DNA of 45,485 nt, taken from positions 1 to 45,485 of IMG/VR virus record IMGVR_UViG_2869970738_000006. One strand, written 5' to 3'. A program made the position numbers and the translations under genes. The notes beneath the pieces were generated by a model. It was not told where the DNA came from. It worked only from the letters and a program-made list of their open reading frames with translations, and ran no database searches. This document shows positions 3,265 through 44,260 of this stretch, piece by piece. Source of the stretch: a virus. Lineage: Duplodnaviria > Heunggongvirae > Uroviricota > Caudoviricetes. Within the stretch, counting starts at the first letter, position 1; each line of letters starts with the position of its first letter.

Positions 3265-3277
3265 GTATTACCTCCGT

Positions 3278-4030: not shown

Positions 4031-4037
4031 ATCGTCC

Positions 4038-4963: not shown

Positions 4964-4978
4964 AATTTCACCCTGCGT

Positions 4979-5332
4979 TTATCGTCGCCGGTTAACTGCG
5001 GGTGGTTGACCACGGTTGAGCCAGAGATAACAGCTGCCCCCGTCATCCGGAGAAACACGATCCACCCAGAATATCTCACCATTAATGGTCAGCGTGTCAC
5101 CACGCCGCACGGCACGAACCGTATCCGTCCGCACAAATAATGACGGGCTGCTTCCTTCAATACGGACCCCGCCACCGGTAAACCCCAGCGACTCCGGATC
5201 ATCAAAAACCCCCTGAACTTCGCTGCCACACTGTGCCCCCGAGGTGAACTGCGCACAGAGCCCCATCACTTCAACGATCGTACTGTCTACCCCGGCGAGG
5301 GCAGCATCAAAGGCATTCTGAAAATCACGCAT
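4979..5332 (-). CDS. Head-tail joining protein FII (copy A)
   Basis: 117-aa ORF, lambda FII-like, conserved position. Confidence 0.85.
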   Translation of the reverse strand: MRDFQNAFDAALAGVDSTIVEVMGLCAQFTSGAQCGSEVQGVFDDPESLGFTGGGVRIEGSSPSLFVRTDTVRAVRRGDTLTINGEIFWVDRVSPDDGGSCYLWLNRGQPPAVNRRR

Positions 5333-5708
5333 ATTCAGCCGTTCCGTGCTGTATCATGGCCGTTGCCAGTGATGATGGCACCAGAACACACATACCCCGT
5401 AACGCCAGCTCAACGGGACGACCTGTCTCCGGGCAATACCCCATTACTTGCAGGCACTTCCGTACCCGGACGGCTTTAACATCATCCGGAGCATCCGTGT
5501 TGTTCAACTGCTCACCATCGTCTGTGTGATTTTGATCAGCCCCGCTCTCATCAGAGTGCATAATGCCCTCCGGGGAAACAGCAAGCTCCTCTTCCCACTC
5601 AGACACACGTTGAGCAATATCCGCAGCACTCCCCGACATATCCGCCTCGCGCCCCGGCAGGCCAGCCAGTTGACGAAGACGATTCAGATTTTCTTCTTTT
5701 GTTGCCAT
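5325..5708 (-). CDS. DNA packaging protein FI (copy A)
   Basis: Start taken at MATKEENL preceded by AGGAGG; acidic protein between E and FII. Confidence 0.75.
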   Translation of the reverse strand: MATKEENLNRLRQLAGLPGREADMSGSAADIAQRVSEWEEELAVSPEGIMHSDESGADQNHTDDGEQLNNTDAPDDVKAVRVRKCLQVMGYCPETGRPVELALRGMCVLVPSSLATAMIQHGTAEYA

Positions 5709-5759
5709 CTCAGCCTCCTGTGAAAAAAGACACGGGGGCATTTCGCCCCCGCTCACGGA

Positions 5760-6788: not shown

Positions 6789-6845
6789 AAATCAGTTCCT
6801 TTCATTCAGAAATCAGTCAGGCCACCATGGTGGCCTGATAACGTG

Positions 6846-7193
6846 TTACGGCAGAGCCGCGTGACTCAGGGCTGTGCCGGCAAAGGCATTTGCCTTTTTG
6901 TGTTCATCCACACTGTCAGGCCAGCGGATTGCCTCCGTCGCAAAGGTCCCCGACTTGTAATAGGTCAGCACCGTCTCTGTGCCTTCAAGCGGCAGTACCA
7001 GTATGCCAACCGCACTACCGGCTTTCTGTCCATCCCAGACCACCAGTTTCCCGGTGGCTTCATCCAGCATCAGGGGCGTCAGAGCCGGTGTTGCAGAAGA
7101 AATCCCGCTGCTGCCTGTGGCGGTATGAGCCGGATCATTACCAGCAAAAATACGTACTTCCGCACGCTGTTCAGTGATGGTTTTCGTCACCAT
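6846..7193 (-). CDS. Head decoration protein D (copy A)
   Basis: 115-aa ORF, lambda D-like, between C and E. Confidence 0.9.
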   Translation of the reverse strand: MVTKTITEQRAEVRIFAGNDPAHTATGSSGISSATPALTPLMLDEATGKLVVWDGQKAGSAVGILVLPLEGTETVLTYYKSGTFATEAIRWPDSVDEHKKANAFAGTALSHAALP

Positions 7194-7229
7194 ATTGTTA
7201 AAACCTCGTATTGATGTTCAGCACTGACT

Positions 7230-8735
7230 TCATGGCATGGCCATGAGCATTTTCACGTCCGCATCACCGTCTTCTGATGCCTGTGACACGCCCCCCTGGA
7301 CCGCAGCCGGTGAATGGTTCGCCATGAAATGTTCAAACAGGGCGGTTGTGGATGCAGAGACCGGTTCTGCCTTACCTGATCCCGCAGCCAGCACAGCCCG
7401 GGCGCTCTCCACAGTCATTCCCGGGCAGGCAGCCAGCTGTTCAGCCTGCGCCTCAGCCCCTTTTGCCTCATCCAGTGCCATGATCTGATCACGGAGTGAT
7501 GGTCCGGCATTCGCCTGCGGTGAAGCAGCCAGGATCGGGCGGGCTTTTTCCACCGTCATCTCCGGCATCGCCGCCAGCGTTGCTGCCAGTTGTTCACGAC
7601 CGTTCGCTTCTTCACACGCCATAATGCGATCGGCTTCACTCTGCGCGGATGCCACCGGCTGCTGCGGTGCCGCCGCGGCCAGAATCGCCCGGGCCTGTTC
7701 AACGCTCATGCCCTGTTGCCCTGCCAGCATCGTGGCAAGCTGTTCACGTCCTTTCGCTTCCTGGCATGTCAGGATCCCCATCACTCGCTGGTTCTCCTGC
7801 ACGGCGGCTTCCGTTGCAGTTAATTGCGGCATAGTGCCTCCTCTGACATTACTGTTCAGCGCCGTGGCCATCACACTGATGGCATCCGACGCATTGATTA
7901 ATTCATCCGCCAGCCCGGCCTCAATGCCGGACTGACCTTCAAAAACGGCGGCCTCTGTTCCCGTGACCGCATCCACAGACAACCCGGTATACATCGCCAC
8001 TTTTTCGGCAAACATCCGGTGCGCCGCATCAATCCGCTGCTGCATATCCTGGCGAACCTCTGCCGGCAACGCTTCAAACTGATTGCCATCCACCTTGTGC
8101 GCCCCGGCATAAATCAGCGTGATATCCACACCGGCCTGCGCCAGATGACCGGCATAGCTGACATGGCTCATCATCACGCCAATGGAGCCGATACGGGATG
8201 TCTGGGTAACCAGCCGTCGGGAGCAGGCCGACGCCAGCAGCATGGCTGCAGAACAGGCCGTGTCATTGCACAGTGCCCAGACCGGCTTCTGCTGACGGAG
8301 GCGGTAAATCATGTCAGCGCAGTCAAACGCGCCGGCGGCCTGCCCGCCCGGACTGTCAATGTCCAGCAGTATGCCCCGCACCTGGCTATCTGCCATTGCC
8401 TGCTGAAGACAGGCGACAATGCCGTCATAGCCAGTCATTCCGGAAAATGGCCGCATCCCCCCCAGCCGGTGCACCAGCGTGCCGGTCACCGGCAGTACCG
8501 CAATACCGTTCACCACCCGGTAAACACGGGCCGGTCGTTTACCTCCGGCCATGTACTCGTCCGTTTCAGCCAGCATTCCGGGAGCATCAAGCTGTACCTG
8601 CTGTTGTGGTACCGAAAGACTTGCTGCGCCCATCTCGCGCCCGAGCGCGCAAAAGAAAACCCGCGCATAGGCGGGCTCCAGAAGCAGCGGTTCATTGAAT
8701 GCTGCGGCAATAATGTGTGAAAGATTACGTCTCAC
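7230..8735 (-). CDS. Head maturation protease/scaffold (lambda C/Nu3-like, ClpP/S49-type), copy A
   Basis: 501-aa ORF with serine-protease core and C-terminal threefold ~40-aa repeat. Confidence 0.9.
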   Translation of the reverse strand: MRRNLSHIIAAAFNEPLLLEPAYARVFFCALGREMGAASLSVPQQQVQLDAPGMLAETDEYMAGGKRPARVYRVVNGIAVLPVTGTLVHRLGGMRPFSGMTGYDGIVACLQQAMADSQVRGILLDIDSPGGQAAGAFDCADMIYRLRQQKPVWALCNDTACSAAMLLASACSRRLVTQTSRIGSIGVMMSHVSYAGHLAQAGVDITLIYAGAHKVDGNQFEALPAEVRQDMQQRIDAAHRMFAEKVAMYTGLSVDAVTGTEAAVFEGQSGIEAGLADELINASDAISVMATALNSNVRGGTMPQLTATEAAVQENQRVMGILTCQEAKGREQLATMLAGQQGMSVEQARAILAAAAPQQPVASAQSEADRIMACEEANGREQLAATLAAMPEMTVEKARPILAASPQANAGPSLRDQIMALDEAKGAEAQAEQLAACPGMTVESARAVLAAGSGKAEPVSASTTALFEHFMANHSPAAVQGGVSQASEDGDADVKMLMAMP

Positions 8736-10316
8736 GTGGTGTTGTCTCCTCTTCCGGCCTGCGACTCTCCGCTATCTGCTGCTGATACGCCTGCGCTATC
8801 CACACCGGACGTGAGAGTCCGGCTTTTTCCCGCTCTGCAGATTCCCTGACCTGCTGGCGGAAAATGTCCTGATAATCCTCGCCCATCAGCGCCAGCTCTT
8901 TCTCATACGTGCTCAGTCCGGCCTCAATGCGCATCACTGATTCCTGAACCTCCTTGAGCCCGTCAATGGCCATTCTTCCGGCTCCAATCCACTCAGCCCG
9001 TGACCAGGCTGATCGCGCCTGATAAAAATCAAAACGTGCCCGTGGCGGACGAATAATCCCCGAAGAAGTGCCTCTTCCAGCCAGCAGGAAAACATCTGCG
9101 TGGCCAGCCGGGACGCAATAAATTTTCGCCGCCCCATAAAATAGCGCCACGACTCATTGGCGGATGCGCGGGCACTTGAATAACTGACCTTCGAGTAATC
9201 ACGGGACAACTGTTCGTAGGAAACGCCAAGACCGGCGGCGATATACCGCAGCAGCGCCTGTTCAAGCGCCGAAAATCCATTGTCTGAATCCTGCGCGGTC
9301 TGAAGTTTCAGATCATCACCGGGGAAAAGGTGCGGAATTTTGACACCGCCCAGCGTCACGCTATTCGTGTCATACCAGGTGGAGAACTTATCCAGAATAT
9401 TAATAAGCGGATTATCCTTCTGCCCCTGCGGCGCACCGGCGATATATTCAAAGGCCTTTTCGGTATCAAGGTCACTTTCAATCGTCGCTGCATACATCGC
9501 CTTCACTATGGCCGACTGAAGCTGTGTTGCCTGCAGGGAATCGAGCATCTTCAGCCGTTCCATTACGCTGTAAAACTGATTGGCCCCACGGGTCTGCCCG
9601 TCCTCCACCGGCTCGAAAATATGCAGCATGGCCGGACGCCCGGTGGGAAGTTCACGCGGGATCCGTTCCCATCGTCCACTCCCAGAGAACGGAAAATCAT
9701 CCTCACAGATATGGTACGCAACGGCACGACCATATCGATCGACCTCCACACCGGCCCGCAGAAAACGGTTCCCCATACCGTGTCCTGGCGTGTCCACCCG
9801 TTTCGGACTCACGGCTTTAAAACGCGTACGAAACAGTTGCGTGCTCTCCGTATCCCAGACCGGCTGCACAAAGATTTCGCCGTTAAACGCATGAACGCCC
9901 ACACCTTCACGAATAAATTCCGTAAACGTGCGTTTCTCTTCCACGTCGATCTCGCCAAACATCCCTTCGGCGTATTCCGACCAGGCCGCCTCCACCTCAT
10001 CGACAAAACTTTTTGCCGCAGTCTCCCGCATCCCCAGCCAGCGCCAGTTCGGACGGTAGCTGATCAGAAACATATGCCCGACAATATGATCCTTATGCAG
10101 GGCCACCGCATTGGCCGCTATCCCGTTATTGCGCACCAGATCATCTGCCCGGGCATTCCCCAGACGCAACGCAGGCAGCAGGGCTGCATCGGCACTCTGC
10201 GCCGGTGGCAACCACTCCGCCATTTGCCCACCAAATCCTGCGCCGCCCCCGTTGTAGCTGAGACTCTCACGAAGCGGAACGCCGTTCACATCAATCAGGA
10301 CAGGCGTTCGTTTCAT
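8725..10316 (-). pseudogene. Portal protein B (copy A), apparent -1 frameshift at a C4 run 9058-9061
   Basis: 460-aa ORF is lambda B-like but its C-terminus goes out of frame; the conserved C-terminus (..ARSAWS..RMAIDGLKEVQ) continues in the overlapping 141-aa ORF. Confidence 0.8.
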
Positions 10317-33763: not shown

Positions 33764-36371
33764 CGCCCGCTCCCCGATAACAGACCGCCATCACGCAACT
33801 GCAGCCGGAGCTCATCCTGCGCACCTTTACGGGCCATCTCATACACCGCTTTCATCAGCTGCGGCCCTGCCTGCCCGTTGGGGCCGTCGTTCTGAATCAC
33901 CACGTGATTGTTCTGATTAAAATTAATGCCTTCGGCCCGCCGCATCTGCGCCGGACTTCCGGCACCGCCGACATAACCACCTTCCGCATACCCGCGCATC
34001 AGACGATACAGGTTGCCGACACCAATCCGGCTGGTCGCCTCCTTCGTGAAGACAAACTCCCCGCGATGGACAATCCCCGCAGGCTCATATTTGCCGCCCG
34101 TCCCCGTAAATCCTCCGGTCGCGAAATGGAAGTTCGCCGCCGCAGCCTGAATGGCCGTCCCCGTGGAAGCGGATGCGCCACCACCGAAAGCACCACCAAT
34201 GGCGCTGCCGATACGCCCGACAATCCCCACCATCGCCTGCTTCAGAAAAATCTCTGTCAGCATGGAGAGCACGGAACGGGTGAAACCACGCCAGTTCTGT
34301 TCGCTGCCGGTCAGCATCGCCGCCATATTCTGTGCAATACCGTCAAAGGTCTGCGTGGCCACACTTTTTACCTGCGAAAAACTGTCCGTCGCACTTTCCG
34401 CCCACTCGCCCCAGCCGGACTTCATCCCGGCCATCCAGCTTCCACGAAGCTGCTCCTCCGCAGACCAGGTGTTCTTCAGTGCAGATGTGGCCTTCGCCAG
34501 CGCAGCCGGATTATCACCGTACACCTCACGAAGGCGCTGCTCTTCCGACTCCCGCTGCGCCTGACGGTCGGTGAGTCCGCGGGCTTTTGCGCTGATTGCC
34601 GCCTGCTTCGCGCTCTGCTGCTGTTCAAACCGCGCCGCCTGCTGTGCCAGCTCATTCAGCCGCTTCTGGTGTTCAATCTTGTCTCCCAGCTCAGCCAGCT
34701 GGCGTTTGTACTCCAGCGTCTCTTTCTCATGAGCCAGCAGGGATTTTTCCTGCCAGGATAACTGCCGTTTCGTGGCAGCCTCTTTCAGGACCGCATACTG
34801 ACTTTCCGCCTTCCATAAATCACGGCGCTGCCGGCTGATTTTCTCATTCGCACCGCTGTGTTTTTCCAGCGTCCTGAGCTCAGCTTCAAGGGCAAGCAGA
34901 GCCTCTCTTGCCTGCTCCTCTTCCCTCTCCCCGGCAGAGCGCGTTTTCGGTGATGTATGCTTTTTACCTGTCAGCTCTTCAGCCAGACGGCTGACGGCTT
35001 CCTGCTGCCCAAGACCTTTGCTGACGCCTGTTGCACGCGAGCGGTTGATGTACCCCATTTCCCCCTGGCGTATACGCGCATCCCGTTCCGCAATGGATTT
35101 TCTCAGCGCCAGTTCATCGCGTTTTGTTTTCTCAATAAATACGCGGTTCTCTTCTGCCAGTTCACCAAACAACGCACCAACGCCGGGCACATTCTTTGTC
35201 GTTTCCCAGGCTGACTGAATAAATTCAGCCAGCGCCAGATCCCCCTGCACAAGCAGCAGCTTCACCTGTTCAACGGTTCCGGCCACCACGTCAGTGATCA
35301 GACTGAGTGCCCCCAGTGTATGATCACCTATCCATGCCCATGCGTCAGAAGTCCAGGTTTTAACATCGTCCCAGATTTTTTCCACCGGCGTGGCCGCTTT
35401 ATCAAGTTGCTCCAGACGTGCATTCATGACATCCGCAAACAGGGACATCGCCTCCGTCACCGCAGCCTGTTTACCTTTCGTGCGCTCAAGCTCATCAATA
35501 TGGCGTAACTGGGAAACGCTCAGGAAGTTATACTGCTGATTCAGGGAGGCCAGCGCCTTCACCGGATCTGCTGCAATCCCTTCAAAGGCTTTTTCCACCT
35601 TCCCGGCATCGTCCCCCACCGTCTGCAGCCATCTCTGAGAGGTTTCCCCCATGATCCGTAGCTGCCCGGCGGTATATTTCCCGCTTTCTGCCAGACGGGC
35701 CAGATTTTCTGCCGCCTGTCTGATACCACCACCGGCTTCATCGCTGATCACCCCGGCCATTTTCCACAATTCTGCCGTTGTGGTGGCAGCCGCCCCTCCG
35801 GTCAGGATCAGTGAACGCAATAAGGCCCGGTCAGCCTGCTCTGCCTGCCAGGCGGCGACAGCAAGCGCGGCCAGTACGGCAACCCCGCCACCTGCCGCCA
35901 CACGGACCACCGACATAAATCGTCCCAGCTCACCGGCATTCCGGGCATTTTCAGCCAGTGCATTTGCCGTATCTGACAGCGACTCCTCTGATGATTCAGA
36001 GGCATCCCTGATCCCGAGAAGTTCCTCCTTCAGCAGGGTAAGCAGGCTGAGCGGTTCACCGAATGAATCGCTGATCTGCCCCCCTGCTGCAGCATGATAA
36101 GGAAGGGATTCTGACCACCGGCAAGCTGAGTGACAATATCCGTGAACTGTGCGGGCAGTGTGCGCATGGCAGCCTTATACTGTCCGACTGATATCCCGGC
36201 TTTTTGTGCAGCCAGCGCCTGTCGGCTCAGCCCCTGTTCAACAGTACTGGCGGTTTTTCTGGCATCCGCCTCCAGACTGGAAAAATGACGGCGTACCCGG
36301 GCCATCTGTTCATCAAACCGGGCCGCATCCAGACTCAAATCAATAACCAGATCACCCGCTGGCTGGGACAT
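33760..36371 (-). pseudogene. Tail tape measure protein (H-like), copy B: apparent 1-nt deletion in a C6 run at 36079-36084
   Basis: N-terminal ~95 aa in ORF 36030-36371; rest in 718-aa ORF; the adjacent frame reads ..LQQGGQISDSFGE.. continuously into the long ORF. Confidence 0.8.
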
Positions 36372-36765
36372 ATCTCACACCTCCGGAAATCCCCGCTGAA
36401 GCCATCATTAATGCAACATCATCCTCGCTGACATCCACCACATTCGCAGAAGGTGAAATATCGCGCCCTCCGTCCCCTCCGAACCGGACGCCTCCGGCAA
36501 CTCCTGTCGCTTTCTGCATCAGCATTTCTTCCTCGTCCGGCATCTCCGTCTGCTCTTCCTCACACGCTGGAGCAAGCAGACTGAAATCCGCCGGATGCAT
36601 ATCCGGATCGCCAAAAAACAGGCTGAGTACGGCGTACATCAGCCCGGAAAAATGAGCGTCCAGTTGGGTATCCTGAAAATAATGCGTGCAGTAAAAACGT
36701 CGCCAGTCGGCATATTCGGTGGATGTCATCCCGGCAAGCATGGCGCGCCAGTCGGGTCTCCCCAT
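36352..36765 (-). CDS. Tail assembly chaperone T-frame segment (copy B)
   Basis: 137-aa ORF homologous to copy A T; T frame closed by a stop at 36790-36792 upstream. Confidence 0.7.
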   Translation of the reverse strand: MGRPDWRAMLAGMTSTEYADWRRFYCTHYFQDTQLDAHFSGLMYAVLSLFFGDPDMHPADFSLLAPACEEEQTEMPDEEEMLMQKATGVAGGVRFGGDGGRDISPSANVVDVSEDDVALMMASAGISGGVRYVPASG

Positions 36766-37183
36766 CTCTCGCGCCAGTTTCAGGACAAGTTACCGGCTCA
36801 GTCGCTTCTGCTTTCCCGGTTTGTTCAGGATCGGCATCGTGCCGGTTATCCAGCATACCTGAAAGATAAAGCACCCGGTTCGTTGCCTGATTCAGTGCAT
36901 CAGCAGGCCATCCCAGCATCACTTCACGGCGGATCTGCTGCATCTCTGTCTCCGGAGAGGCCAGAGTGCCTTTGAGGGAATGGGTATGCCATAGCGACAT
37001 CGCCACAAGCAGGGATGCCGTTTCCAGATATCGCTGGTTAATGTGCACGACATCATGCTTCGTTGTCTCCTGTTGTTCTGCGTCTGAAACAAACTTTATA
37101 TAATCAAACCGCTGCAGCGCAGACAATTCGGAAAGCGTGACAGACACACCGTTATATTCAAATTGTTCTGTTTTCAGAAACAT
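36560..37183 (-). CDS. Tail assembly chaperone G (copy B) with aberrant 3' end: reads through ~75 extra codons, no in-register slippery site
   Basis: First ~130 aa G-like; middle and 3' part diverge from copy A; GGGAAAG at 36811-36817 is in GGG AAA register. Confidence 0.6.
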   Translation of the reverse strand: MFLKTEQFEYNGVSVTLSELSALQRFDYIKFVSDAEQQETTKHDVVHINQRYLETASLLVAMSLWHTHSLKGTLASPETEMQQIRREVMLGWPADALNQATNRVLYLSGMLDNRHDADPEQTGKAEATEPVTCPETGARDGETRLARHACRDDIHRICRLATFLLHALFSGYPTGRSFFRADVRRTQPVFWRSGYASGGFQSACSSV

Positions 37184-37196
37184 GTATTACCTCCGT

Positions 37197-37949
37197 TTAC
37201 CCTGCAGCGCCCGCTTCAGTAACGGTGACTTCAGCCACTGCGGCGAACTGACCATTTCCGCTCACCACAAGGATCTGCACCTTACCTGTCGCCACGCCGT
37301 TTACCGTAATTGTCATATCTTTCACACTAATGGTGGCTTTCGACGGATCGGCGGAAACCGCTCTGAACGTCTTGTCGGTTGCACTTTCCGGCTCAAAAGA
37401 AACCGTCAGGGTGGTTGTTTTCCCTTTTGCCACCGTACCGGATGTCGGCGTCACCTTAATCGCACTGACCGGCGTAATTTTGCTGCGTTCTTCCGCTACA
37501 GAAGGTTTACCCACGTTAGTGACTTTCACCGTGCGGGTGATCACTTCTTTCGCCGTCACGGCCTTACCGATACTGCTGACCCAGCCACGAAACACATCCA
37601 CCGTGCCATTCGGAAAACGGATTTTATAGGCCCGGACATCGCCGCTTTCAAACCAGCCTATAAGCCCTTTCTGGCCTTCCTCTCCCGGTTTCCAGGCCAG
37701 CGTAAAACTGGTATCACCTGCAGATTTCTGCCCCTGCCCGGTCGCGTTCCAGTCCGCGTCTTCATCATCCAGGTAGTTATCATCGTAGGATTCTGCCGTC
37801 ATCTCGCCCGGCGTCAGATCCTTCACCTTAGCCAGTCGCTGCCAGTCATCGTCTGACAACGGGTTTGCATAAGCATCACCCTTGCCGTTGTAAACCCACA
37901 GAGTGGTACCGGCACCTTTTACCGGCTCAAGGGGATTTGGTGTTGCCAT
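37197..37949 (-). CDS. Major tail protein V (copy B)
   Basis: Near-identical to copy A V. Confidence 0.9.
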
Positions 37950-37956
37950 ATCGTCC

Positions 37957-38352
37957 TCACATCTCGTATGTAATGGAATAAGTCAGATCTGCAGAACTCC
38001 ATAACGCCATATCGTCATCACGACGATACTCATAGCCCTGCGTAACCATCGTGGTAATCAGTCCTGCCAGTGCCGGGATCGCAGTCATCGCCGGGTAAAT
38101 CCGGCTTTCCATCCACTGATCAAGCTCTGAATCCGGTACCTGTGCCGGTAAAAACACCTCAATATGCAGCGTGGCCCGCCAGGTATCTGCATCCAGCTCT
38201 TCACCGGTATACTCTGCATCCGTCAGATAAACCGCGATCGCAGGAAAATCCTCTTCGTCAAAAACAACGGGGCGACCATCAAACAGCGTCGCCCCGTGTT
38301 CATGCTGCTCGAGTGCATCCAGCACTGCGGCACGAATGTCAGTGTGTTTCAT
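37957..38352 (-). CDS. Tail terminator protein U (copy B)
   Basis: Identical protein to copy A U. Confidence 0.9.
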
Positions 38353-38924
38353 CGTTTTATCGCAATCCTCAGTTGTTGTTTCAGCGCGTATGCCAGTTCT
38401 TTAGGCAGGCGTTCACGCCGGATACGGTCAACATTCTCATCAAATGCCTGTTTCAGTGGGGCCGCCATCGGGATTTTCACCACCTGAATGGGAAGGCGAT
38501 TACGCTTTTTCCTTCCCTTGTCGTCATTGCCCTCCTCATATCTGGCCTGGGGAAGACGTTGCATAACATGCCAGCGCCCATTATTTAATCGCTGGATAAA
38601 TGCCCGCTGATAACGATGCTGACCGGCTTTAAGTATGCTGTTCGGACGACGTCCCAGCATTCTGATCCCCAACTTAATCACAGGGAGATCACCGCGGTTA
38701 ACGATAATTCTGGCATTCGGATTTCTGACCGTCGCCCGTTTCAGTCTGGACCGTTCCTTTACCAGTTTCCGTCTCACCCTGGTTTCCCGGGCAACCTGTG
38801 ACGAAGACTGATTAATCGCCGTTGTGGCCACGCGGTTAATCGTCATTGCTGAAGCCGCCGGAATGGCGTTTTTACGAACCCGGCTCAGATTATCAATCGC
38901 CTGATCAAGCCCTTTTATCGCCAT
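38349..38924 (-). CDS. Tail completion protein Z (copy B), 14-aa insertion relative to copy A
   Basis: 191 aa versus 177 aa; extra segment LPQARYEEGNDDKGRKKRNR. Confidence 0.85.
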   Translation of the reverse strand: MAIKGLDQAIDNLSRVRKNAIPAASAMTINRVATTAINQSSSQVARETRVRRKLVKERSRLKRATVRNPNARIIVNRGDLPVIKLGIRMLGRRPNSILKAGQHRYQRAFIQRLNNGRWHVMQRLPQARYEEGNDDKGRKKRNRLPIQVVKIPMAAPLKQAFDENVDRIRRERLPKELAYALKQQLRIAIKR

Positions 38925-38939
38925 AATTTCACCCTGCGT

Positions 38940-39293
38940 TTATCGTCGCCGGTTAACAGCGGGTGGTTGCCCACGGTTGAGCCAGAGATAACAGCTTCCC
39001 CCGTCATCCGGAGAAATACGATCCACCCAGAACATCTCGCCGTTAATGGTCAGCGTGTCACCACGCCGCACGGCACGCACCGTATCCGTCCGCACAAATA
39101 ATGACGGGCTGCTTCCTTCAATACGGACCCCGCCACCGGCAAAACCCAGCGACTCCGGATCGTCAAAAACCCCCTGAACTTCGCTTCCACGCTGTGCTCC
39201 CGAGGTGAACTGCGCACAGAGCCCCATCACTTCAACAATCGTGCTGTCCACCCCGGCAAGGGCAGCATCAAAGGCATTCTGAAAATCACGCAT
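38940..39293 (-). CDS. Head-tail joining protein FII (copy B)
   Basis: Near-identical to copy A. Confidence 0.85.
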   Translation of the reverse strand: MRDFQNAFDAALAGVDSTIVEVMGLCAQFTSGAQRGSEVQGVFDDPESLGFAGGGVRIEGSSPSLFVRTDTVRAVRRGDTLTINGEMFWVDRISPDDGGSCYLWLNRGQPPAVNRRR

Positions 39294-39669
39294 GCTCAGC
39301 CGTTCCGTGCTGTATCATGGCTGTCGCCAGTGGTGATGGCACCATAACACGCATGCCCCGGTACGTCAGTTCAACGGGACGGCCTGTCTCCGGGCAATAC
39401 CCCATCACATGCAGGCATTTCCGCACACGGACCGCTTTAACATCATCCGTAGCATCCGTGTTGTTCAACTGCTCACCATCGTCTGTGTGATTTTGATCAG
39501 CCCCGCTCTCATCAGAGTGCATAATGCCCTCCGGGGAAACAGCAAGCTCCTCTTCCCACTCAGACACACGTTGAGCAATATCCGCAGCACTCCCCGACAT
39601 ATCCGCCTCGCGCCCCGGCAGGCCAGCCAGTTGACGAAGACGATTCAGATTTTCTTCTTTTGTTGCCAT
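39286..39669 (-). CDS. DNA packaging protein FI (copy B)
   Basis: Near-identical to copy A; start at MATKEENL. Confidence 0.75.
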   Translation of the reverse strand: MATKEENLNRLRQLAGLPGREADMSGSAADIAQRVSEWEEELAVSPEGIMHSDESGADQNHTDDGEQLNNTDATDDVKAVRVRKCLHVMGYCPETGRPVELTYRGMRVMVPSPLATAMIQHGTAEHA

Positions 39670-39720
39670 CTCAGCCTCCTGTGAAAAAAGACACGGGGGC
39701 ATTTCGCCCCCGCTCACGGA

Positions 39721-40749
39721 TTATTTCACCTGTACCACCACAAACTCATCCGGATCCGGCAGCACCATCAGCGGTGCGGACTGCGTCATGGTGAATTCAC
39801 GGGCCGGATCGCCCACAGTCAGCCAGTGTTTCGGATAACGGGAAGAGGCCACCACACCTTCGGACAACGCCTGCGCATCCTGAATGGCACCATAGCAACG
39901 AATGCCCTCTGCTGCCGTATTCCCCAGGACCAGTGTGCCCTCCGGCAGATAACGTTTTTCGGTACCGTCCTCTGCCACATAAGACGTTTTCGCCACCACA
40001 ATGGCCAGATCGCCGTAATACCCCTTGAAGGACACCACCGCCCCCAGGTCTTTCACTGCCGTTTCGAGTTGTGAATTTGAGCCGCGACGGGTATCCAGTT
40101 TTTCGCGGAACAGCTTAAAGCCATTCAGCAGACGCCAGACCGTACCGTCCATAATGGCGATATTCACAAGGCCGCTGGCCTGATCGCAGTAGAGGTCAAT
40201 ATCATGCGTCGGATCAAACGTATCACGGTCCTGCTCAGACCATTTTTTACCGTCAGCCTGCTCAATGTTATTTCCTTCAGAGCGCCCGAAATCCACCTCG
40301 ACAGTATCAAACTGATCCCCTTCCATGGTGTATTTGCCATACAGCACGGCATTCACCGCCTGCATTTCTTCCACCTGGACAATGGCGTGCTCTTCCTGTT
40401 TGAGGTTATCGGTAATGATACGCAGACGACGGTAGGCCGGGTCGTTCAGCTGAGCCGGATCTTCACCAGGAAGGCGCTCAACCGCCTGCTGGTAATTAAA
40501 TTCGTGTTTGGGCTTGACGTAGCCCGGACGTAACACGCGGGTTTCACCACCGCGATGGCGAAGCACTTTTCCTTCAACGATCGGGGAGACATAGGCCGCC
40601 ACCGGCGTTTTTCCGGTAATTTTGTCCAGCATCACCTCTTCGGTGTGGAAATTCACCGTACGGCGGAAAAACAGCTCCAGAAACAGCGCACGGAATTTCA
40701 CTTTTTGTTCGGTATAACCGAGTAACTGGCGGGTCGTAAACAATCCCAT
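39721..40749 (-). CDS. Major capsid protein E (copy B)
   Basis: 342 aa, a few substitutions versus copy A. Confidence 0.95.
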   Translation of the reverse strand: MGLFTTRQLLGYTEQKVKFRALFLELFFRRTVNFHTEEVMLDKITGKTPVAAYVSPIVEGKVLRHRGGETRVLRPGYVKPKHEFNYQQAVERLPGEDPAQLNDPAYRRLRIITDNLKQEEHAIVQVEEMQAVNAVLYGKYTMEGDQFDTVEVDFGRSEGNNIEQADGKKWSEQDRDTFDPTHDIDLYCDQASGLVNIAIMDGTVWRLLNGFKLFREKLDTRRGSNSQLETAVKDLGAVVSFKGYYGDLAIVVAKTSYVAEDGTEKRYLPEGTLVLGNTAAEGIRCYGAIQDAQALSEGVVASSRYPKHWLTVGDPAREFTMTQSAPLMVLPDPDEFVVVQVK

Positions 40750-40806
40750 AAATCAGTTCCTTTCATTAAGAAATCAGTCAGGCCAACGCGGTGGCCTGAT
40801 AACGTG

Positions 40807-41154
40807 TTACGGCAGCGCCGCGTGACTCAGGGCTGTGCCGGCAAAGGCATTTGCCTTTTTGTGTTCATCCCCACTGTCAGGCCAGCGGATTGCCTCCGTC
40901 GCAAAGGTCCCCGACTTGTAATAGGTCAGCACCGTCTCTGTGCCTTCAAGCGGCAGTACCAGTATGCCAACCGCACTACCGGCTTTCTGTCCATCCCAGA
41001 CCACCAGTTTCCCGGTGGCTTCATCCAGCATCAGGGGCGTCAGAGCCGGTGTTGCCGAGGAAATCCCGCTGCTGCCTGTGGCGGTGTGAGCCGGATCATT
41101 ACCGGCAAAAATACGTACTTCCGCACGCTGTTCAGTGATGGTTTTCGTCACCAT
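40807..41154 (-). CDS. Head decoration protein D (copy B)
   Basis: 115 aa, near-identical to copy A. Confidence 0.9.
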   Translation of the reverse strand: MVTKTITEQRAEVRIFAGNDPAHTATGSSGISSATPALTPLMLDEATGKLVVWDGQKAGSAVGILVLPLEGTETVLTYYKSGTFATEAIRWPDSGDEHKKANAFAGTALSHAALP

Positions 41155-41190
41155 TTTGTTAAAACCTCATATTGATGGTCAGCACTGACT

Positions 41191-42696
41191 TCATGGCATG
41201 GCCATGAGCATTTTCACGTCCGCATCACCGTCTGCTGACGTCTGTGACACGCCACCCCGCACCGCTGCCGGTGAATGATTCGCCATGAAATGTTCAAACA
41301 GGGCGGTTGTGGATGCAGAGACCGGTTCGGCCTTACCTGATCCCGCAGCCAGCACAGCCCGGGCGTTCTCCACGGTCATTCCCGGGCAGGCCGCCAGTTT
41401 TTCAGCCTGCGCTTCTGCCCCTTTTGCCTCATCCAGGGCCATGATCTGATCACGAAGTGAGGGCCCGGCATCCGCCAGTGGTGCAGCCGCCAGGATCGGG
41501 CGGGCTTTTTCCACCGTCATCTCCGGCATCGCCGCCAGCGTTGCCGCCAGTTGTTCACGACCGTTCGCTTCTTCACACGCCATAATGCGATCGGCTTCAC
41601 TCTGCGCGGATGCCACCGGCTGCTGCGGTGCCGCCGCGGCCAGAATCGCCCGGGCCTGTTCAACGCTCATGCCCTGTTGCCCTGCCAGCATCGTGGCAAG
41701 CTGTTCACGTCCTTTCGCTTCCTGGCATGTCAGGATCCCCATCACTCGCTGGTTCTCCTGCACGGCGGCTTCCGTTGCAGTTAATTGCGGCATAGTGCCT
41801 CCTCTGACATTACTGTTCAGCGCCGTGGCCATCACACTGATGGCATCCGACGCATTGATTAATTCATCCGCCAGCCCGGCCTCAATGCCGGACTGACCTT
41901 CAAAAACAGCGGCCTCTGTTCCCGTGACTGCATCAACAGACAGACCGGTAAACATCGCCACTTTTTCGGCAAACATCCGGCGCGCCGCATCAATCCGCTG
42001 CTGCATGTCCTGGCGAACCTCTGCCGGCAACGCTTCAAACTGATTGCCATCCACCTTGTGCGCCCCTGAGTAAATCAGCGTGATATCCACACCGGCCTGC
42101 GCCAGATGACCGGCATAGCTGACATGGCTCATCATCACGCCAATGGAACCGATACGGGATGTCTGGGTAACCAGCCGTCGGGAGCAGGCCGACGCCAGCA
42201 GCATGGCCGCAGAACAGGCCGTGTCATTACACAGTGCCCAGACCGGCTTCTGCTGCCGGAGGCGGTAAATCATGTCAGCGCAGTCAAACACGCCGGCTGC
42301 CTGCCCGCCCGGACTGTCAATGTCCAGCAGTATGCCCCGCACCTGGCTATCTGCCATTGCCTGCTGAAGACAGGTGACAATGCCGTCATAGCCAGTCATT
42401 CCGGAAAATGGCCGCATCCCCCCCAGCCGGTGCACCAGCGTGCCGGTCACCGGCAGTACCGCAATACCGTTCACCACCCGGTAAACACGGGCCGGTCGTT
42501 TACCTCCGGCCATGTACTCGTCCGTTTCAGCCAGCATCCCGGGAGCATCAAGCTGTACCTGCTGTTGCGGTACCGAAAGACTTGCTGCCCCCATCTCGCG
42601 CCCCAGCGCGCAAAAGAAAACCCGCGCATAGGCGGGCTCCAGAAGCAGCGGTTCATTGAATGCTGCTGCAATAATGTGTGAAAGATTACGTCTCAC
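41191..42696 (-). CDS. Head maturation protease/scaffold C/Nu3-like (copy B)
   Basis: 501 aa, near-identical to copy A. Confidence 0.9.
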   Translation of the reverse strand: MRRNLSHIIAAAFNEPLLLEPAYARVFFCALGREMGAASLSVPQQQVQLDAPGMLAETDEYMAGGKRPARVYRVVNGIAVLPVTGTLVHRLGGMRPFSGMTGYDGIVTCLQQAMADSQVRGILLDIDSPGGQAAGVFDCADMIYRLRQQKPVWALCNDTACSAAMLLASACSRRLVTQTSRIGSIGVMMSHVSYAGHLAQAGVDITLIYSGAHKVDGNQFEALPAEVRQDMQQRIDAARRMFAEKVAMFTGLSVDAVTGTEAAVFEGQSGIEAGLADELINASDAISVMATALNSNVRGGTMPQLTATEAAVQENQRVMGILTCQEAKGREQLATMLAGQQGMSVEQARAILAAAAPQQPVASAQSEADRIMACEEANGREQLAATLAAMPEMTVEKARPILAAAPLADAGPSLRDQIMALDEAKGAEAQAEKLAACPGMTVENARAVLAAGSGKAEPVSASTTALFEHFMANHSPAAVRGGVSQTSADGDADVKMLMAMP

Positions 42697-43465
42697 GTGG
42701 TGTTGTCTCCTCTTCCGGCCTGCGACTCTCCGCTATCTGCTGCTGATACGCCTGCGCTATCCACACCGGACGTGAGAGTCCGGCTTTTTCCCGCTCTGCA
42801 GATTCCCTGACCTGTTGGCAGAAAATGTCCTGATAATCCTCGCCCATCAGCGCCAGCTCTTTCTCATACGTGCTCAGTCCGGCCTCAATGCGCATCACTG
42901 ATTCCTGAACCTCCTTGAGCCCGTCAATGGCCATTCTTCCGGCTCCAATCCACTCAGCCCGTGACCAGGCTGATCGCGCCTGATAAAAATCAAACCGTGC
43001 CCGTGGCGGACGAATAATCCCCGAAGAAGTGCCTCTTCCAGCCAGCAGGAAAACATCTGCGTGGCCAGCCGGGACGCAATAAATTTTCGCCGCCCCATAA
43101 AATAGCGCCACGACTCATTGGCGGATGCGCGGGCACTTGAGTAACTGACCTTCGAGTAATCACGGGACAACTGTTCGTAGGAAACGCCAAGACCGGCGGC
43201 GATATACCGCAGCAGCGCCTGTTCAAGCGCCGAAAATCCATTGTCTGAATCCTGCGCGGTCTGAAGTTTCAGATCATCACCGGGGAAAAGGTGCGGAATT
43301 TTGACACCGCCCAGCATCACGCTATTCGTGTCATACCAGGTGGAGAACTTATCCAGAATATTAATAAGCGGATTATCCTTCTGCCCCTGCGGCGCACCGG
43401 CGATATATTCAAAGGCCTTTTCGGTATCAAGGTCACTTTCAATCGTCGCTGCATACATCGCCTTT
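42686..43465 (-). pseudogene. Portal protein B (copy B): 5' ~270 codons missing (homology to copy A ends about 43465) and same C4-run frameshift at 43019-43022
   Basis: ORFs 42895-43458 and 42686-43111 match the copy A portal C-terminal half; upstream sequence unrelated. Confidence 0.8.
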
Positions 43466-43593
43466 ATGAAAAGACAGGAAAAAATAAAATTTAAAAACAG
43501 TACATTACGAATGCTCAGACCTATCGTTTAAAGGAGTCGCAATACACACTGCAATACACGATTATTTATAAGATGAGCGGCATCCGTCATAAA

Positions 43594-43819
43594 GCTGGTG
43601 GATGCTTTTTCTATGCATATATGCACAGTTTTAGTGGGCGTTAATGTCGATATAGGGATCCCCATATCGAGATTGGATACCAGGCTTTTTTAATCAGGCT
43701 GGTGGGCTTTACCTGTTTTGTATGAGTGGTCATCATGACCATGTCATAACAAAAACCCCATATTCGTGGTTTTTCTGTGTCGGGCTATTCTGTCGTTGCT
43801 GTGCTGATTTGGCTGGTGG
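43594..43819 (+). other. Three co-oriented Chi sites (GCTGGTGG) within ~230 bp
   Basis: Exact octamers at 43594-43601, 43698-43705 and 43812-43819; the latter two inside a repeated ggctggtgggct 12-mer. Confidence 0.6.
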
Positions 43820-43888
43820 GCTGAATCATCATTACGGCGATGCAGCTATGTAGACGTTCCGGCCTCCTCAAATTGAGGATTGTGGAAG

Positions 43889-44060
43889 AATCAATGGGTT
43901 AGTCTTACTTTCCCGACATCCCCCAATGGGGGGTTTCGAAACAATCAATAGCTTAGGCTTACTTCCCAGATTTCCTGCATTGCAGGTTTTCGAAATAATC
44001 AATGGGTTAGGCCATCGTGCAATTTTGCACTTTGCCAGCCAGCGCAATGTCGCGTTATCA
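43889..44060 (+). repeat. Three tandem ~54-bp imperfect repeat units, each an AATCAATgGgTTAG box plus a GC-rich hairpin
   Basis: Units start about 43889, 43943 and 43997; hairpins cccccaatggggg, cctgcattgcagg, gtgcaattttgcac; a related gccagccagcgcaat..gcgttatc element recurs at 44033 and 44221. Confidence 0.6.
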
Positions 44061-44260
44061 GTCCTCAGATGTGAGGGATGTAGCCAGCTTTTCCCCCAGT
44101 GGGGGATATCCAGCACCGACGGCTTAACTGTGCGTGCCAGCACAAGGTAGCCTTGAACTACTTACTGCATCCCATCTTACAGGCCGTGCCTTCCTGCTTA
44201 ACTTTTTGCAATGCAACAAGTCAGCCAGCGCAATTTTGCGTTATCGGGAATATCAGCAAG

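What the first reader, a model, noticed from the sequence alone, without database searches (positions are those of the whole stretch)
43466..44260. Repeat-dense non-coding region replacing the portal 5' end: Chi cluster plus tandem hairpin units
Homology to copy A stops at 43465 in mid-portal. The next ~800 bp contains no convincing gene. It holds three exact Chi octamers in the same orientation within 230 bp, where about one per several kb is expected. It also holds several palindromes (tgcatatatgca, a ggatcc-centred palindrome, tggtcatcatgacca, cctcaaattgagg) and three tandem ~54-bp units of AATCAATgGgTTAG plus a GC hairpin and TTTCGAAA. This resembles an origin or iteron-like control region, a recombination hotspot or an sRNA array rather than ordinary intergenic DNA.
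Basis: seen in the sequence. Interest (0 to 1): 0.7.

Follow-up and report, generated by a model that had tools for sequence, protein, structure and literature searches.

The report
Satellite end with Chi and IHF sites
The "repeat-dense" stretch is the non-coding end of a small phage satellite (a helper-embedded PICI) that has inserted into the portal gene of a lambda-like prophage; it carries the satellite's integration arm, three recombination-hotspot (Chi) sites and three tandem copies of a protein-binding module otherwise found inside the phage gene roi.

Summary
Homology to the other portal copy stops at 43464. No gene is detectable. The window's only three Chi octamers lie within 226 bp on one strand. 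There are three 54-bp tandem units and several palindromes.

The interpretation needs revising. The portal 5' end is not replaced. The portal is split at a 13-bp core (CATACATCGCCTT) by an ~11-kb helper-embedded PICI, a satellite class described in 2023. 43465-44260 is its integrase-distal end.

Contents:
- The published HE-PICI doubled arm motif lies 81 bp from the core centre.
- Three Chi sites sit in modules conserved across satellites. Chi runs at about 2 per kb in this terminal region in 19 of 19 sequence clusters, roughly 10 times the E. coli mean.
- Each of the three units is a dyad-symmetric box plus a perfect IHF consensus. Each matches a different allele class of the module inside lambdoid roi genes.

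Most likely it is a protein-binding and RecBCD-engaging terminal module, not an origin. An sRNA array is not excluded but has no specific support. The element class is known. The Chi cluster and the roi-box/IHF array appear undescribed. Interest is moderate.

The parts
43452..43464 (.). att core (identity block) CATACATCGCCTT; junction between the portal C-terminal half and the satellite
   Evidence: The same 13 bp lies at 9491-9503 in the intact copy-A portal. In E. coli EC28 it is duplicated at both ends of the ~10.9-kb insert (L003 1604-1616 and 12502-12514).
43537..43561 (-). HE-PICI doubled arm motif (reverse complement of tgTGTATTGCantgTGTATTGCa), a putative integrase arm-type or AlpA site
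   Evidence: GCAATACA occurs at 43539 and 43551, 81 bp from the core centre at 43458. The published position is 81 +/- 2 bp (PMC10111431). The second copy sits near int in L003 at 12357 and 12369.
43579..43606 (+). Chi 1 (43594-43601) inside a hairpin followed by a T-run (terminator-like)
   Evidence: The same ATCCGyCATnAAGCTGGTGGATG module sits next to the att arm in satellites with other integration sites.
43614..43674 (.). Palindromes TGCATATATGCA (43614-43625) and the GGATCC-centred dyad (43643-43674)
   Evidence: I7, I3. The GGATCC dyad recurs in related satellite ends L012 and L013.
43684..43708 (+). Chi 2 (43698-43705) in the conserved module ...TTAATCAGGCTGGTGGGCTTTACCTG
   Evidence: D4. 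The module occurs in many satellite clusters.
43727..43741 (.). Palindrome TGGTCATCATGACCA
   Evidence: It is conserved in cf-PICI L004 and in L012/L013.
43798..43822 (+). Chi 3 (43812-43819), a diverged repeat of the Chi 2 module
   Evidence: D4, 76% identity. It is also present at the end of a cf-PICI beside thiM (L004 9085).
43859..43912 (+). Unit 1: dyad TCCTCAAATTGAGGA (43865-43879) plus IHF consensus AATCAATGGGTTA (43889-43901)
   Evidence: A 50-bp stretch is 96% identical to codons ~41-57 of a lambdoid roi allele (L005; phages phi330, Lahn2, JLK-2012).
43913..43966 (+). Unit 2: dyad CCCCCAATGGGGG (43920-43932) plus IHF consensus AATCAATAGCTTA (43943-43955)
   Evidence: A 53-bp stretch is 89% identical to the same position in a second roi allele (L006; VT2-Sakai, HK629).
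43967..44020 (+). Unit 3: dyad CCTGCATTGCAGG (43974-43986) plus IHF consensus AATCAATGGGTTA (43997-44009)
   Evidence: HK022 roi has CCTGCATTGCAG followed by AATCAATGATTTA at the same codons (L028 ~4784-4820).
44017..44030 (.). Terminal palindrome GTGCAATTTTGCAC that closes the unit array
   Evidence: It follows the last unit in the arrays inspected in HE-PICIs, cf-PICIs and P22-like prophages.
44036..44245 (.). Direct repeats CAGCCAGCGCAATnTnGCGTTATC (44036-44059 and 44222-44245) flanking a ~185-bp insert with further dyads (CCTCAGATGTGAGG 44063-44076, CCCCCAGTGGGGG 44093-44105)
   Evidence: D3, D5, I1. The insert is absent from cf-PICI L009, where the array abuts the gene directly.
44261..44542 (-). 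Last satellite gene: a 93-aa protein of unknown function (phrog_1561)
   Evidence: It is the terminal gene in HE-PICIs and cf-PICIs. The model is three helices (pLDDT 72) with no fold match.
44554..44623 (-). 3' remnant of the satellite's Nu1-like small terminase gene, cut by an IS
   Evidence: The window aligns to EC28 only up to 44623 (L003 2788, inside terS 2719-3261).
44624..45485 (-). IS3-family insertion sequence (transposase orfB 44667-45485) truncating the satellite in this window

Best explanation
[quoted passage not shown] This is a phage satellite that integrates by site-specific recombination into the portal gene (lambda gene B) of a lambdoid prophage.

**Shown:**
- the identity of the element;
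- the 13-bp core;
- the published doubled arm motif at its published distance from the core;
- the absence of a detectable gene;
- the Chi enrichment;
- the three IHF-consensus sites;
- the homology of each unit to a different roi allele.

**Inferred mechanism.** The region works at the DNA level and has three parts.

1. **attP arm.** The first ~100 bp is the attP arm used by Int (and possibly AlpA) for integration and excision.
2. **Chi cluster.** The satellite carries no recombination module and no RecBCD inhibitor. The Chi cluster, and the high Chi content of the whole satellite, would let host RecBCD switch from degradation to RecA loading. That would protect satellite DNA and recombine it when it is linear or broken. 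The three sites face a RecBCD that enters from the terS-proximal cos end, about 1.4-1.7 kb away. This follows the logic published for lambdoid phages that are Chi-rich and lack a Rec module.
3. **Unit array.** Each of the three 54-bp units would bind host IHF at a perfect WATCAANNNNTTR core. The adjacent dyad would bind a dimeric DNA-binding protein, most plausibly a phage Roi protein, with one specificity class per unit. Spacing of about five helical turns puts the IHF bends in phase. The result would be a bent nucleoprotein array at the satellite's end.

**Not established.** What that complex then does is unknown. The candidates are sensing or titrating Roi from resident or incoming lambdoid phages, or acting as a roadblock or boundary to late transcription running out of the satellite.
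For: **Identity of the element**
- The full region occurs in 48 of 5,426 complete E. coli genomes, always between a portal C-terminal fragment and the 93-aa gene.
- In EC28 the insert runs hyp93, Nu1-like terS, an AlpA-like gene, D-like and E-like capsid genes, SSB, primase, Icd-like, BRO-N, HTH and int. The portal N-terminal half, W, terL and terS follow (Pfam).
- A 13-bp direct repeat flanks the insert.
- The HE-PICI doubled motif lies 81 bp from the core centre on one arm and ends 131 bp from it on the other. The published values are 81 +/- 2 and 132 +/- 2.
- The core falls near Phage_portal_2 profile position ~240. A B:Phage_portal_2:241 site group is published.

**Chi**
- The window has three Chi sites, all in this region.
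- The EC28 satellite has 10 Chi in 10.9 kb (P = 1.8e-4), against 1 in the ~19.5 kb of the locus beyond the insert (helper prophage and adjacent DNA).
- Across 19 sequence clusters of the 800 bp beyond hyp93, all 19 carry Chi. The total is 31 against 3.3 expected.
- At least 7 unrelated sequence contexts hold a perfect octamer.
- Lambdoid phages without a Rec module are Chi-rich, with Chi clustered near one genome end (PMC12315714).

**IHF and dyad units**
- The window has 5 matches to WATCAANNNNTTR against 1.17 expected. Three are in this region, on the same strand, 54 bp apart.
- Across 36 distinct units the most conserved columns are the ATCA and TTAG of the IHF core, while the N4 positions vary.
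- The dyad arms are complementary in 92.8% of cells against 70.7% in shuffles. Double changes number 35 against 12.3, with 0 of 500 shuffles reaching that.
- The only matches in 50,697 phage records are inside roi genes.
- HK022 roi carries the same layout.
- Dyad class tracks the recognition-helix variant in three roi allele classes.
Against: **No binding or activity was measured**
- Binding of IHF, Roi or RecBCD to this DNA was not tested here.
- That HK022 Roi binds within its own gene next to an IHF site is recalled from Clerget & Boccard 1996. That paper could not be read here. Whether the dyad is the Roi site is inference.

**Against a Roi link to the helper**
- The EC28 locus (32 kb, including the helper's late and nin-region genes) and the window show no roi, so Roi would have to come from another phage.

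**Against a simple Chi model**
- Chi orientation across satellite clusters is mixed: 18 in the window's orientation against 13 opposite.
- A helper that makes Gam would silence RecBCD during its own lytic growth.

**Against a single fixed function for the array**
- The array's orientation relative to the neighbouring gene and to the element's end differs between PICIs and P22-like prophages.
- Duplicated fragments of the 3' flank of hyp93 within arrays look like recombination debris.
Confidence: 0.68

Rival explanations
1. Structured RNA or antisense-RNA array. The hairpin units would be transcribed. All satellite genes run on the - strand, so read-through from terS and hyp93 would yield RNA antisense to about 50 nt of the roi mRNA of three allele classes. 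That RNA could silence a helper regulator, comparable to P1 c4 or P4 CI/seqA.
For: - Both strands fold better than shuffles (z = -3.3 on the + strand, -4.3 on the - strand).
- The stems change by compensatory substitutions.
- Two units are 96% and 89% identical to roi sense sequence over 50-53 nt.
- The satellite operon runs antisense to the units.
Against: - No Rfam family matches at gathering score or at E <= 10, apart from one chance-level hit.
- Promoter and terminator counts do not exceed shuffles.
- The stems are only 5 bp with 3-nt loops.
- Wobble variants are not consistent for one strand. CCTGCATTGTAGG favours the + strand, while CCTCAAATTAAGG and CCCCCAATGAGGG favour the - strand.
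- In P22-like prophages the array lies in the sense orientation, downstream of perC.
- The best-conserved columns are the IHF core, not the stems.
Confidence: 0.13
2. Functionless recombination debris. The units would be leftover fragments of roi genes, and of the 3' end of hyp93, picked up and duplicated during mosaic exchange between satellites and lambdoid phages. The Chi sites would have accumulated passively, as in any long-resident chromosomal DNA.
For: - The architecture is mosaic and highly variable between elements, with 1-4 units and indels.
- Repeated fragments of the gene's 3' flank occur (D3).
- The 54-bp period equals 18 codons in the roi frame, and a 98-codon open frame lacks a start codon.
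- The late zone of PICIs is reported to capture helper DNA.
Against: - Chi runs at ~2.07 per kb, about 10 times the chromosomal mean and about 3 times the satellites' own coding DNA (0.65 per kb). It occurs in 19 of 19 clusters and in at least 7 sequence contexts.
- Dyad symmetry is maintained by double substitutions.
- The IHF core is near-invariant across classes.
- The units share the same boundaries and exclude the flanking roi codons in most arrays.
Confidence: 0.14
3. Silent-cassette donor array. The three in-frame 18-codon units would be alternative versions of the roi wing segment. They would be stored without a start codon and copied into roi genes by Chi-stimulated gene conversion, switching Roi specificity.
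For: - The units are in frame, free of stop codons and flanked by conserved repeats.
- Each matches a different natural roi allele exactly at the polymorphic segment.
- A Chi cluster lies alongside.
Against: - Spacing is not a multiple of three in other arrays (55, 48, 116, 88), and stop codons follow some units (L015).
- The Chi sites are oriented to stimulate exchange on the att side, away from the units.
- No roi target exists in the window or in the EC28 locus examined.
Confidence: 0.04
4. Replication origin or iteron control region of the satellite.
For: The region has tandem repeats, low GC and IHF sites, all of which occur at some origins.
Against: - There is no exact DnaA box.
- The region lies at the opposite end of the element from the primase.
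- The PICI origin is described as lying downstream of pri.
- The same module occurs in elements with different replication proteins and in P22-like prophages.
Confidence: 0.02

Closest known systems
Helper-embedded PICIs (HE-PICIs; e.g. Eco567.11capE, site groups B:Phage_portal_2; NAR Genom Bioinform 2023, PMC10111431)
   Same: - Integration inside a lambdoid late gene, here the portal.
- A short att identity block.
- The doubled TGTATTGC motif at 81 and ~132 bp from the attP centre.
- The Int-Bro-Replication-Late gene order, co-oriented with the helper's late operon.
- Its own E-like capsid gene.
   Different: That paper does not discuss the terminal non-coding region, Chi sites or IHF-type sites in it. 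The only IHF remark is that the doubled motif does not resemble one. In this window the satellite is also cut by an IS, so only its last ~1.2 kb is visible.
Chi-rich lambdoid phages without a recombination module (phage LLS and 71 others; Genome Res 2025, PMC12315714; Bobay et al. 2013, PMC3784561)
   Same: - A cos-packaged lambda-type element with no Red/Gam-type module.
- A Chi density several-fold above the host's: 1 per 1.1 kb here, 1 per 1.86 kb in LLS.
- Local clustering of Chi near one end of the packaged genome.
- Neighbouring Rec+ lambdoid DNA that lacks Chi.
   Different: This is a satellite, not a phage. The three clustered sites are non-coding and face the left (terS) end rather than the right end. 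Orientation across satellite relatives is mixed. Dependence on RecBCD is untested.
Intragenic Roi/IHF site of phage HK022 roi (Clerget & Boccard 1996, J Bacteriol 178:4077; recalled, not read here)
   Same: The layout matches: a dyad followed by an IHF consensus ~10 bp after its end. The sequence is 89-96% identical to roi alleles. HK022 itself has CCTGCATTGCAG followed by AATCAATGATTTA.
   Different: The copies here lie outside any roi gene, in tandem, with three specificity classes side by side, in satellites and P22-like prophages. No Roi gene is nearby.
IHF sites in lambda attP (H1, H2, H') and cosB (I1); RIP/BIME-1 elements (REP palindromes flanking an IHF site)
   Same: A consensus IHF core with an upstream A/T-rich tract, next to palindromes, in non-coding DNA at an element boundary.
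   Different: The sites are 430-540 bp from the att core and about 1.1 kb from cosN, too far for the classical intasome or cosB roles. They are shared by elements with unrelated integrases. By inspection the palindromes are not REP sequences.
P1 c4 / P4 CI-seqA antisense immunity RNAs
   Same: Short repeated hairpin modules complementary to a phage regulatory gene (ant/icd) in a satellite or phage. HE-PICIs can carry C4/isrK-type RNAs in their Bro zone.
   Different: No match to the C4 or isrK covariance models here. The location is the far end of the element rather than the Bro zone.

Membership tests
HE-PICI (helper-embedded PICI) | Inserted within a prophage late gene, bounded by an attL/attR identity block | tested here: met
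   The portal is split at CATACATCGCCTT. In EC28 both junctions and both portal halves are present. Only one junction lies inside this window.
HE-PICI (helper-embedded PICI) | Doubled motif tgTGTATTGCantgTGTATTGCa, 81 +/- 2 bp and 132 +/- 2 bp from the attP centre | tested here: met
   In the window the motif is at 43539 and 43551, 81 bp from the centre at 43458. In L003 it is at 1691/1703 and 12357/12369.
HE-PICI (helper-embedded PICI) | Integrase of the HE-PICI clade with an adjacent AlpA, and a unidirectional Int-Bro-Replication-Late order | tested here: inconclusive
   In the 98%-identical EC28 element, a tyrosine integrase with an Arm-DNA-bind_3 domain, an adjacent HTH regulator, a BRO-N protein, primase, SSB and capsid genes are all co-oriented. 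The Phage_AlpA match was shown for the late-zone HTH next to terS, not for the int-adjacent HTH. No integrase phylogeny was run. These genes lie outside this window.
Chi recombination hotspot | Exact octamer 5'-GCTGGTGG-3' | tested here: met
   Three exact copies at 43594, 43698 and 43812, all on the + strand.
Chi recombination hotspot | Density above genomic and local background | tested here: met
   Three in 226 bp against 0.05 expected. There are none in the other 44.7 kb of the window. Relatives have 2.07 per kb against a host mean of 0.217 per kb.
Chi recombination hotspot | Orientation-dependent stimulation of RecBCD-RecA recombination | not testable with these tools
   This needs genetic crosses or RecBCD nicking assays. 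Only the orientation relative to cosN could be derived.
IHF binding site | Core consensus WATCAANNNNTTR with an upstream A/T-rich tract | tested here: met
   AATCAATGGGTTA, AATCAATAGCTTA and AATCAATGGGTTA. Units 2 and 3 are preceded by (T)TTTCGAAA; unit 1 is preceded by TTGTGGAAG, which is less A/T-rich. The window has 5 hits against 1.17 expected. The core columns are the most conserved in 36 units.
IHF binding site | Binding and bending by IHF | not testable with these tools
   No binding data are available here.
roi intragenic Roi/IHF module | Sequence homology to the dyad + IHF segment of roi (codons ~41-57) | tested here: met
   96% over 50 bp, 89% over 53 bp, and the HK022-type dyad.
roi intragenic Roi/IHF module | Located inside a roi (pRha + KilAC) gene | tested here: not met
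   No roi ORF is present. tblastn finds only the 17-residue unit, and there is no Pfam hit for the open frame.
Replication origin / iterons | DnaA boxes or iterons adjacent to the element's initiator gene | tested here: not met
   There is no exact DnaA box, and the primase lies ~4-6 kb away at the other side of the late genes.
Known RNA families (Rfam 15) | Covariance-model match at the gathering score | tested here: not met
   There are 0 matches in the window at gathering score. In 43400-44600 the only hit is a chance-level STnc310 match at E = 6.2.

The most novel reading that the evidence does not exclude
The three tandem units are a multi-specificity sensor or sponge for helper-phage Roi regulators. 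Each unit reproduces the operator plus IHF site that a different roi allele class carries inside its own coding sequence. A satellite (or a P22-like prophage) could then detect or titrate Roi from whichever lambdoid phage is active in the cell. The flanking Chi cluster would keep this exposed end of the satellite from being degraded by RecBCD. A corollary is that in roi the DNA-binding protein and its operator are encoded by the same bases and diversify together.
Probability: 0.2. Interest if true: 0.75.

Novelty: new variant of a known kind. Interest (0 to 1): 0.45.

Why it matters
Phage satellites shape gene transfer and phage resistance in enterobacteria, but their non-coding ends have been ignored.

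- **Chi cluster.** If it is functional, the published rule "no recombination module means many Chi sites" extends from phages to their satellites. That would predict RecBCD-dependent establishment or multimer processing of PICIs.
- **Dyad/IHF array.** If it binds IHF and Roi, it would be a cis-acting device by which satellites and prophages read the identity of co-resident lambdoid phages. It would also revive a phage regulator (Roi) that has barely been studied since 1996.
- **Annotation.** A truncated portal followed by "junk" is an HE-PICI junction, recognisable from the 13-bp core and the doubled TGTATTGC motif.

Tried and rejected
- **Tandem Repeats Finder** found nothing at minimum score 30 because the units are too divergent. 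The repeat finder with 6-nt seeds found them.
- **Rfam** gave nothing at gathering or E-value thresholds.
- **Promoter and terminator scan** showed no enrichment. The one terminator-like hairpin on the + strand contains Chi 1.
- **RNA folding** gave significant z-scores on both strands, so it does not discriminate for palindromic DNA.
- **cos site.** I looked for cosN in the region and it is absent. In intact relatives it lies upstream of terS, outside this window.
- **Origin.** No exact DnaA boxes and no informative skew.
- **Coding potential.** The 98-codon open frame and the 91-aa antisense ORF have no Pfam or PHROG match. The in-frame 54-bp period is not general in other arrays.
- **The 93-aa neighbour as a candidate array-binding protein.** It has 977 homologue clusters, all unnamed. 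The AlphaFold model is three helices (pLDDT 72). Foldseek against the PDB gives no hit below E = 1. This is a dead end.
- **Genome-contig scan with the 93-aa protein** returned 167 pattern hits but none confirmed. The viral-contig scan worked.
- **roi allele survey.** The viral-contig scan with Roi returned only >=95%-identical proteins, though these still split into the two sub-classes of dyad type 1. Together with L006 and HK022 that gives three dyad/recognition-helix classes, so the link between dyad class and recognition helix rests on a small sample.
- **Clerget & Boccard 1996** is not in the held library.
- **attP accessory IHF sites** were considered and rejected. The sites are 430-540 bp from the core and are shared by elements with different integrases and att sites.
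Full report
**1.

- A self-comparison of the window shows that 42600-43464 is 99% identical to 8639-9503 and that the similarity stops there.
- The next ~800 bp has only short overlapping ORFs. PGAP annotates nothing in the equivalent stretch of 98%-identical RefSeq genomes. The two longest frames match no Pfam or PHROG family.
- The octamer GCTGGTGG occurs three times in the whole 45.5-kb window, at 43594, 43698 and 43812, all on the + strand. At the E. coli K-12 density (1008 per 4.6 Mb, quoted in PMC12315714) the chance of three or more in 226 bp is 1.9e-5, or about 4e-3 after correcting for position.
TRF missed the units because they are only 63-72% alike.

**2. What the region belongs to**

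- Megablast against 5,426 complete E. coli genomes finds the whole region in 48 of them. It always lies between a portal gene fragment annotated "missing N-terminus" and a 93-aa hypothetical gene.
- In strain EC28 the gene order is: portal C-half, this non-coding region, hyp93, a Nu1-like small terminase, an AlpA-like regulator, a D-like decoration protein, an E-like major capsid protein, SSB, primase, an Icd-like protein, a BRO-N protein, an HTH protein, a tyrosine integrase. Then come the portal N-half, W, terL and terS of the prophage (Pfam).
- Aligning the intact copy-A portal to EC28 shows a 13-bp overlap, CATACATCGCCTT (window 9491-9503), duplicated at both ends of a ~10.9-kb insert.
- So the portal 5' end is not replaced. 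The gene is split by a site-specific integrative element.
- In this window an IS3-family element cuts that element at ~44624, inside its terS. Only its last ~1.2 kb is visible.

**3. The element class is already described**

- A literature search found [quoted passage not shown] (PMC10111431).
- It defines HE-PICIs, maps 14 sites in nine lambda late genes including three in B (portal), and reports an HE-PICI-specific doubled motif tgTGTATTGCantgTGTATTGCa. One copy lies 81 +/- 2 bp from the attP centre and the other 132 +/- 2 bp.
- The window carries its reverse complement at 43539 and 43551, exactly 81 bp from the core centre. EC28 has the second copy at the int-side arm, ending 131 bp from the centre.
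- The core falls at about position 240 of the Phage_portal_2 profile, which fits the published B:Phage_portal_2:241 group.
- The first ~100 bp of the finding is therefore a known attP arm.
- That paper says nothing about the rest of the terminal non-coding region.

**4. The region is a module shared among satellites and prophages**

- From 43728 onward the sequence, together with hyp93, also ends a capsid-forming PICI next to thiM in an O157 strain. A shorter version ends another cf-PICI next to bioD.
- Arrays of the same units lie downstream of perC near the end of P22-like prophages.
- Parts of 43850-44262 match in 1,243 of 5,426 genomes.
- Next to the att core each element has its own pair of short direct repeats: GCAATACAC here, AACTGACCACAC at thiM, ATTAACTACACC at bio. 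This is the expected pattern for arm-type sites.
- The modules further in are shared regardless of integrase.

**5. Chi**

- The EC28 satellite has 10 Chi in 10.9 kb (P = 1.8e-4). The ~19.5 kb of the EC28 locus beyond the insert (helper prophage and adjacent DNA) has one, and the non-satellite 43 kb of the window has none.
- I collected 80 loci encoding hyp93 homologues from viral contigs and clustered the 800 bp beyond the gene at 90% identity. All 19 clusters have at least one Chi. The total is 31 in 15 kb against 3.3 expected, or 2.07 per kb. The coding parts of the same satellites have 0.65 per kb.
- Perfect octamers sit in at least seven unrelated sequence contexts. This argues for selection on the octamer itself rather than inheritance of a single module.
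- Orientation is not uniform across clusters (18 against 13).
- Intact relatives have an exact lambda cosN (GGGCGGCGACCT) just upstream of terS. Relative to it, the three sites here face a RecBCD entering from the terS-proximal (left) end, 1.4-1.7 kb away. Four of the six Chi on the other side of cos face the right end.
- The satellite's annotated genes include no recombination module or RecBCD inhibitor.
- This mirrors the published finding that lambdoid phages lacking a Rec module are Chi-rich, with terminal clustering, while Rec+/Gam+ phages lack Chi (PMC12315714; also PMC3784561).
- A text search for PICI together with "Chi site" returned only one incidental mention.

**6. The 54-bp units**

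- Each unit is a dyad with 5-6-bp arms and a 3-nt centre, about 10 bp of spacer (TTTTCGAAA or TTGTGGAAG), then AATCAATnnnTTAG.
- That last element is a perfect match to the IHF consensus WATCAANNNNTTR. The window has five matches against 1.17 expected. Three are here, co-oriented and 54 bp apart. The other two lie beside an IS1 copy (the IS1 transposase ORF ends at 23613). IS1 ends are known IHF sites (my own knowledge), which serves as a sanity check on the scan.
- In an alignment of 36 distinct units from many elements, the invariant or near-invariant columns are the ATCA and TTAG of this core. The four N positions vary.
- The dyad arms stay complementary in 92.8% of cells against 70.7% in shuffles. 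Both-side changes number 35 against 12.3, reached by 0 of 500 shuffles. Controls with the pairing slid out of register give at most 50%.
- At least five dyad classes exist: CCTCA/TGAGG, CCCCC/GGGGG, CCTGC/GCAGG, CAGCC/GGCTG and TTTCCAC/GTGGAAA.

**7. Link to roi**

- The only matches of the region in 50,697 phage records are 50-53-bp stretches inside genes annotated roi. In E. coli genomes the equivalent hits lie in "antirepressor KilAC" genes of the nin region.
- Unit 1 is 96% identical to one allele and unit 2 is 89% identical to another. Both match the same codons (~41-57), just after the helix-turn-helix of the Phage_pRha domain.
- HK022 roi has the unit-3 dyad (CCTGCATTGCAG) and an IHF consensus at the same place.
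- Dyad class follows the recognition-helix variant: KRHDNVKRTIETL, SRHDKVKQSIERL and SRHSNVKVSIDRL.
- The Leu of the INxLG motif is TTA, a codon I know to be rare in E. coli, in all alleles seen. That fits a DNA-level constraint.
- From memory, Clerget & Boccard (1996) showed that HK022 Roi binds a site within its own gene closely linked to an IHF site, and that IHF stabilises the binding. The paper is cited in PMC3430580 and PMC4587872 but could not be read.
- I therefore infer that the window's array is three Roi-operator/IHF modules of three specificity classes in series. This is inference, not demonstration.
- No roi gene is present in the window or in the 32-kb EC28 locus, which includes the helper's late and nin-region genes.

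**8. Alternatives**

- An RNA reading is possible. Both strands fold better than shuffles, and satellite read-through would be antisense to roi.
- Against it: there is no Rfam match and no promoter or terminator signal beyond chance. Wobble variants are not strand-consistent. Array orientation is opposite in P22-like prophages.
- The units are 18 codons in the roi frame, and the frame is open for 98 codons. But spacing is 55, 48, 116 or 88 elsewhere, so a coding or cassette reading is weak.
- Nothing supports an origin.
- Pure debris is hard to reconcile with the Chi excess, the compensatory dyads and the invariant IHF core.

**9. Verdict**

- The element is a known kind, an HE-PICI at a portal site.
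- Within it, the Chi cluster is real and fits a recently published principle that, as far as I could find, has not been applied to satellites.
- The tandem roi-box/IHF array appears undescribed.
- Function is inferred, not shown. Interest is moderate.

Noticed in passing
window 9491-9503 (copy A portal, 8725-10316, - strand): The second lambdoid prophage in the window keeps an unoccupied copy of the satellite's 13-bp attB (CATACATCGCCTT). Its head-gene block is 97% identical to the occupied one (4595-9503 against 38556-43464).
   Followed up: partly
window 8725-10316 and 42686-43458: Both portal copies share a 1-nt deletion relative to the EC28 homologue. It splits each into two overlapping ORFs (8725-9150/8934-10316 and 42686-43111/42895-43458). 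This is either a shared frameshift, meaning a defective portal, or a sequencing artefact.
   Followed up: partly
window 44624-45485: An IS3-family element (transposase orfB 44667-45485) is inserted in the satellite's small-terminase gene. Only the last ~70 nt of terS (44554-44623) remain before the window ends, so this copy of the satellite is probably disabled.
   Followed up: partly
L003 (E. coli EC28) 3255-3470, 2719-3261 and 3858-5249: Intact relatives carry an exact lambda cosN (GGGCGGCGACCT) upstream of their terS, with a Chi octamer ~45 nt inside the cosB position. Their TerS matches only the C-terminal half of Nu1. They also encode their own E-like capsid and D-like decoration proteins.
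   Followed up: partly
L005 2880-3602, L006 2879-3601, L028 (HK022) 4656-5378: In lambdoid roi genes, a dyad plus an IHF consensus is embedded in the codons just after the helix-turn-helix. Dyad class changes together with the recognition-helix sequence, and the Leu codon within the IHF core is TTA in all alleles seen.
   Followed up: partly
L007 6929-7140, L008 6930-7090, L014, L015: P22-like prophages carry 1-4 of the same units immediately downstream of a PerC-family regulator gene near the prophage end. Their orientation relative to the element's end is opposite to that in PICIs.
   Followed up: partly
window 12617-23613: The chromosomal genes ruvC-yebC-nudB-aspS (16819-20486) lie between the two prophage blocks. 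They are surrounded by IS110-family (12617-13792, 21242-22438), IS66-family (14085-15677) and IS1 (23236-23613) transposase genes, which marks an IS-rich genome.
   Followed up: no
window 43451-43469 and 43587-43605: The att core region (GCATACATCGCCTTTATGA) is 79% complementary to the Chi 1 module (TCATAAAGCTGGTGGATGC) 117 bp away. This could be chance or a second core-like site.
   Followed up: no
L003 1-32001; window 36352-44542: All satellite genes are co-oriented with the helper's late operon. Antiterminated late transcription should therefore read through the integrated satellite and out through this non-coding end into the portal C-half. The HE-PICI paper also notes this.
   Followed up: no
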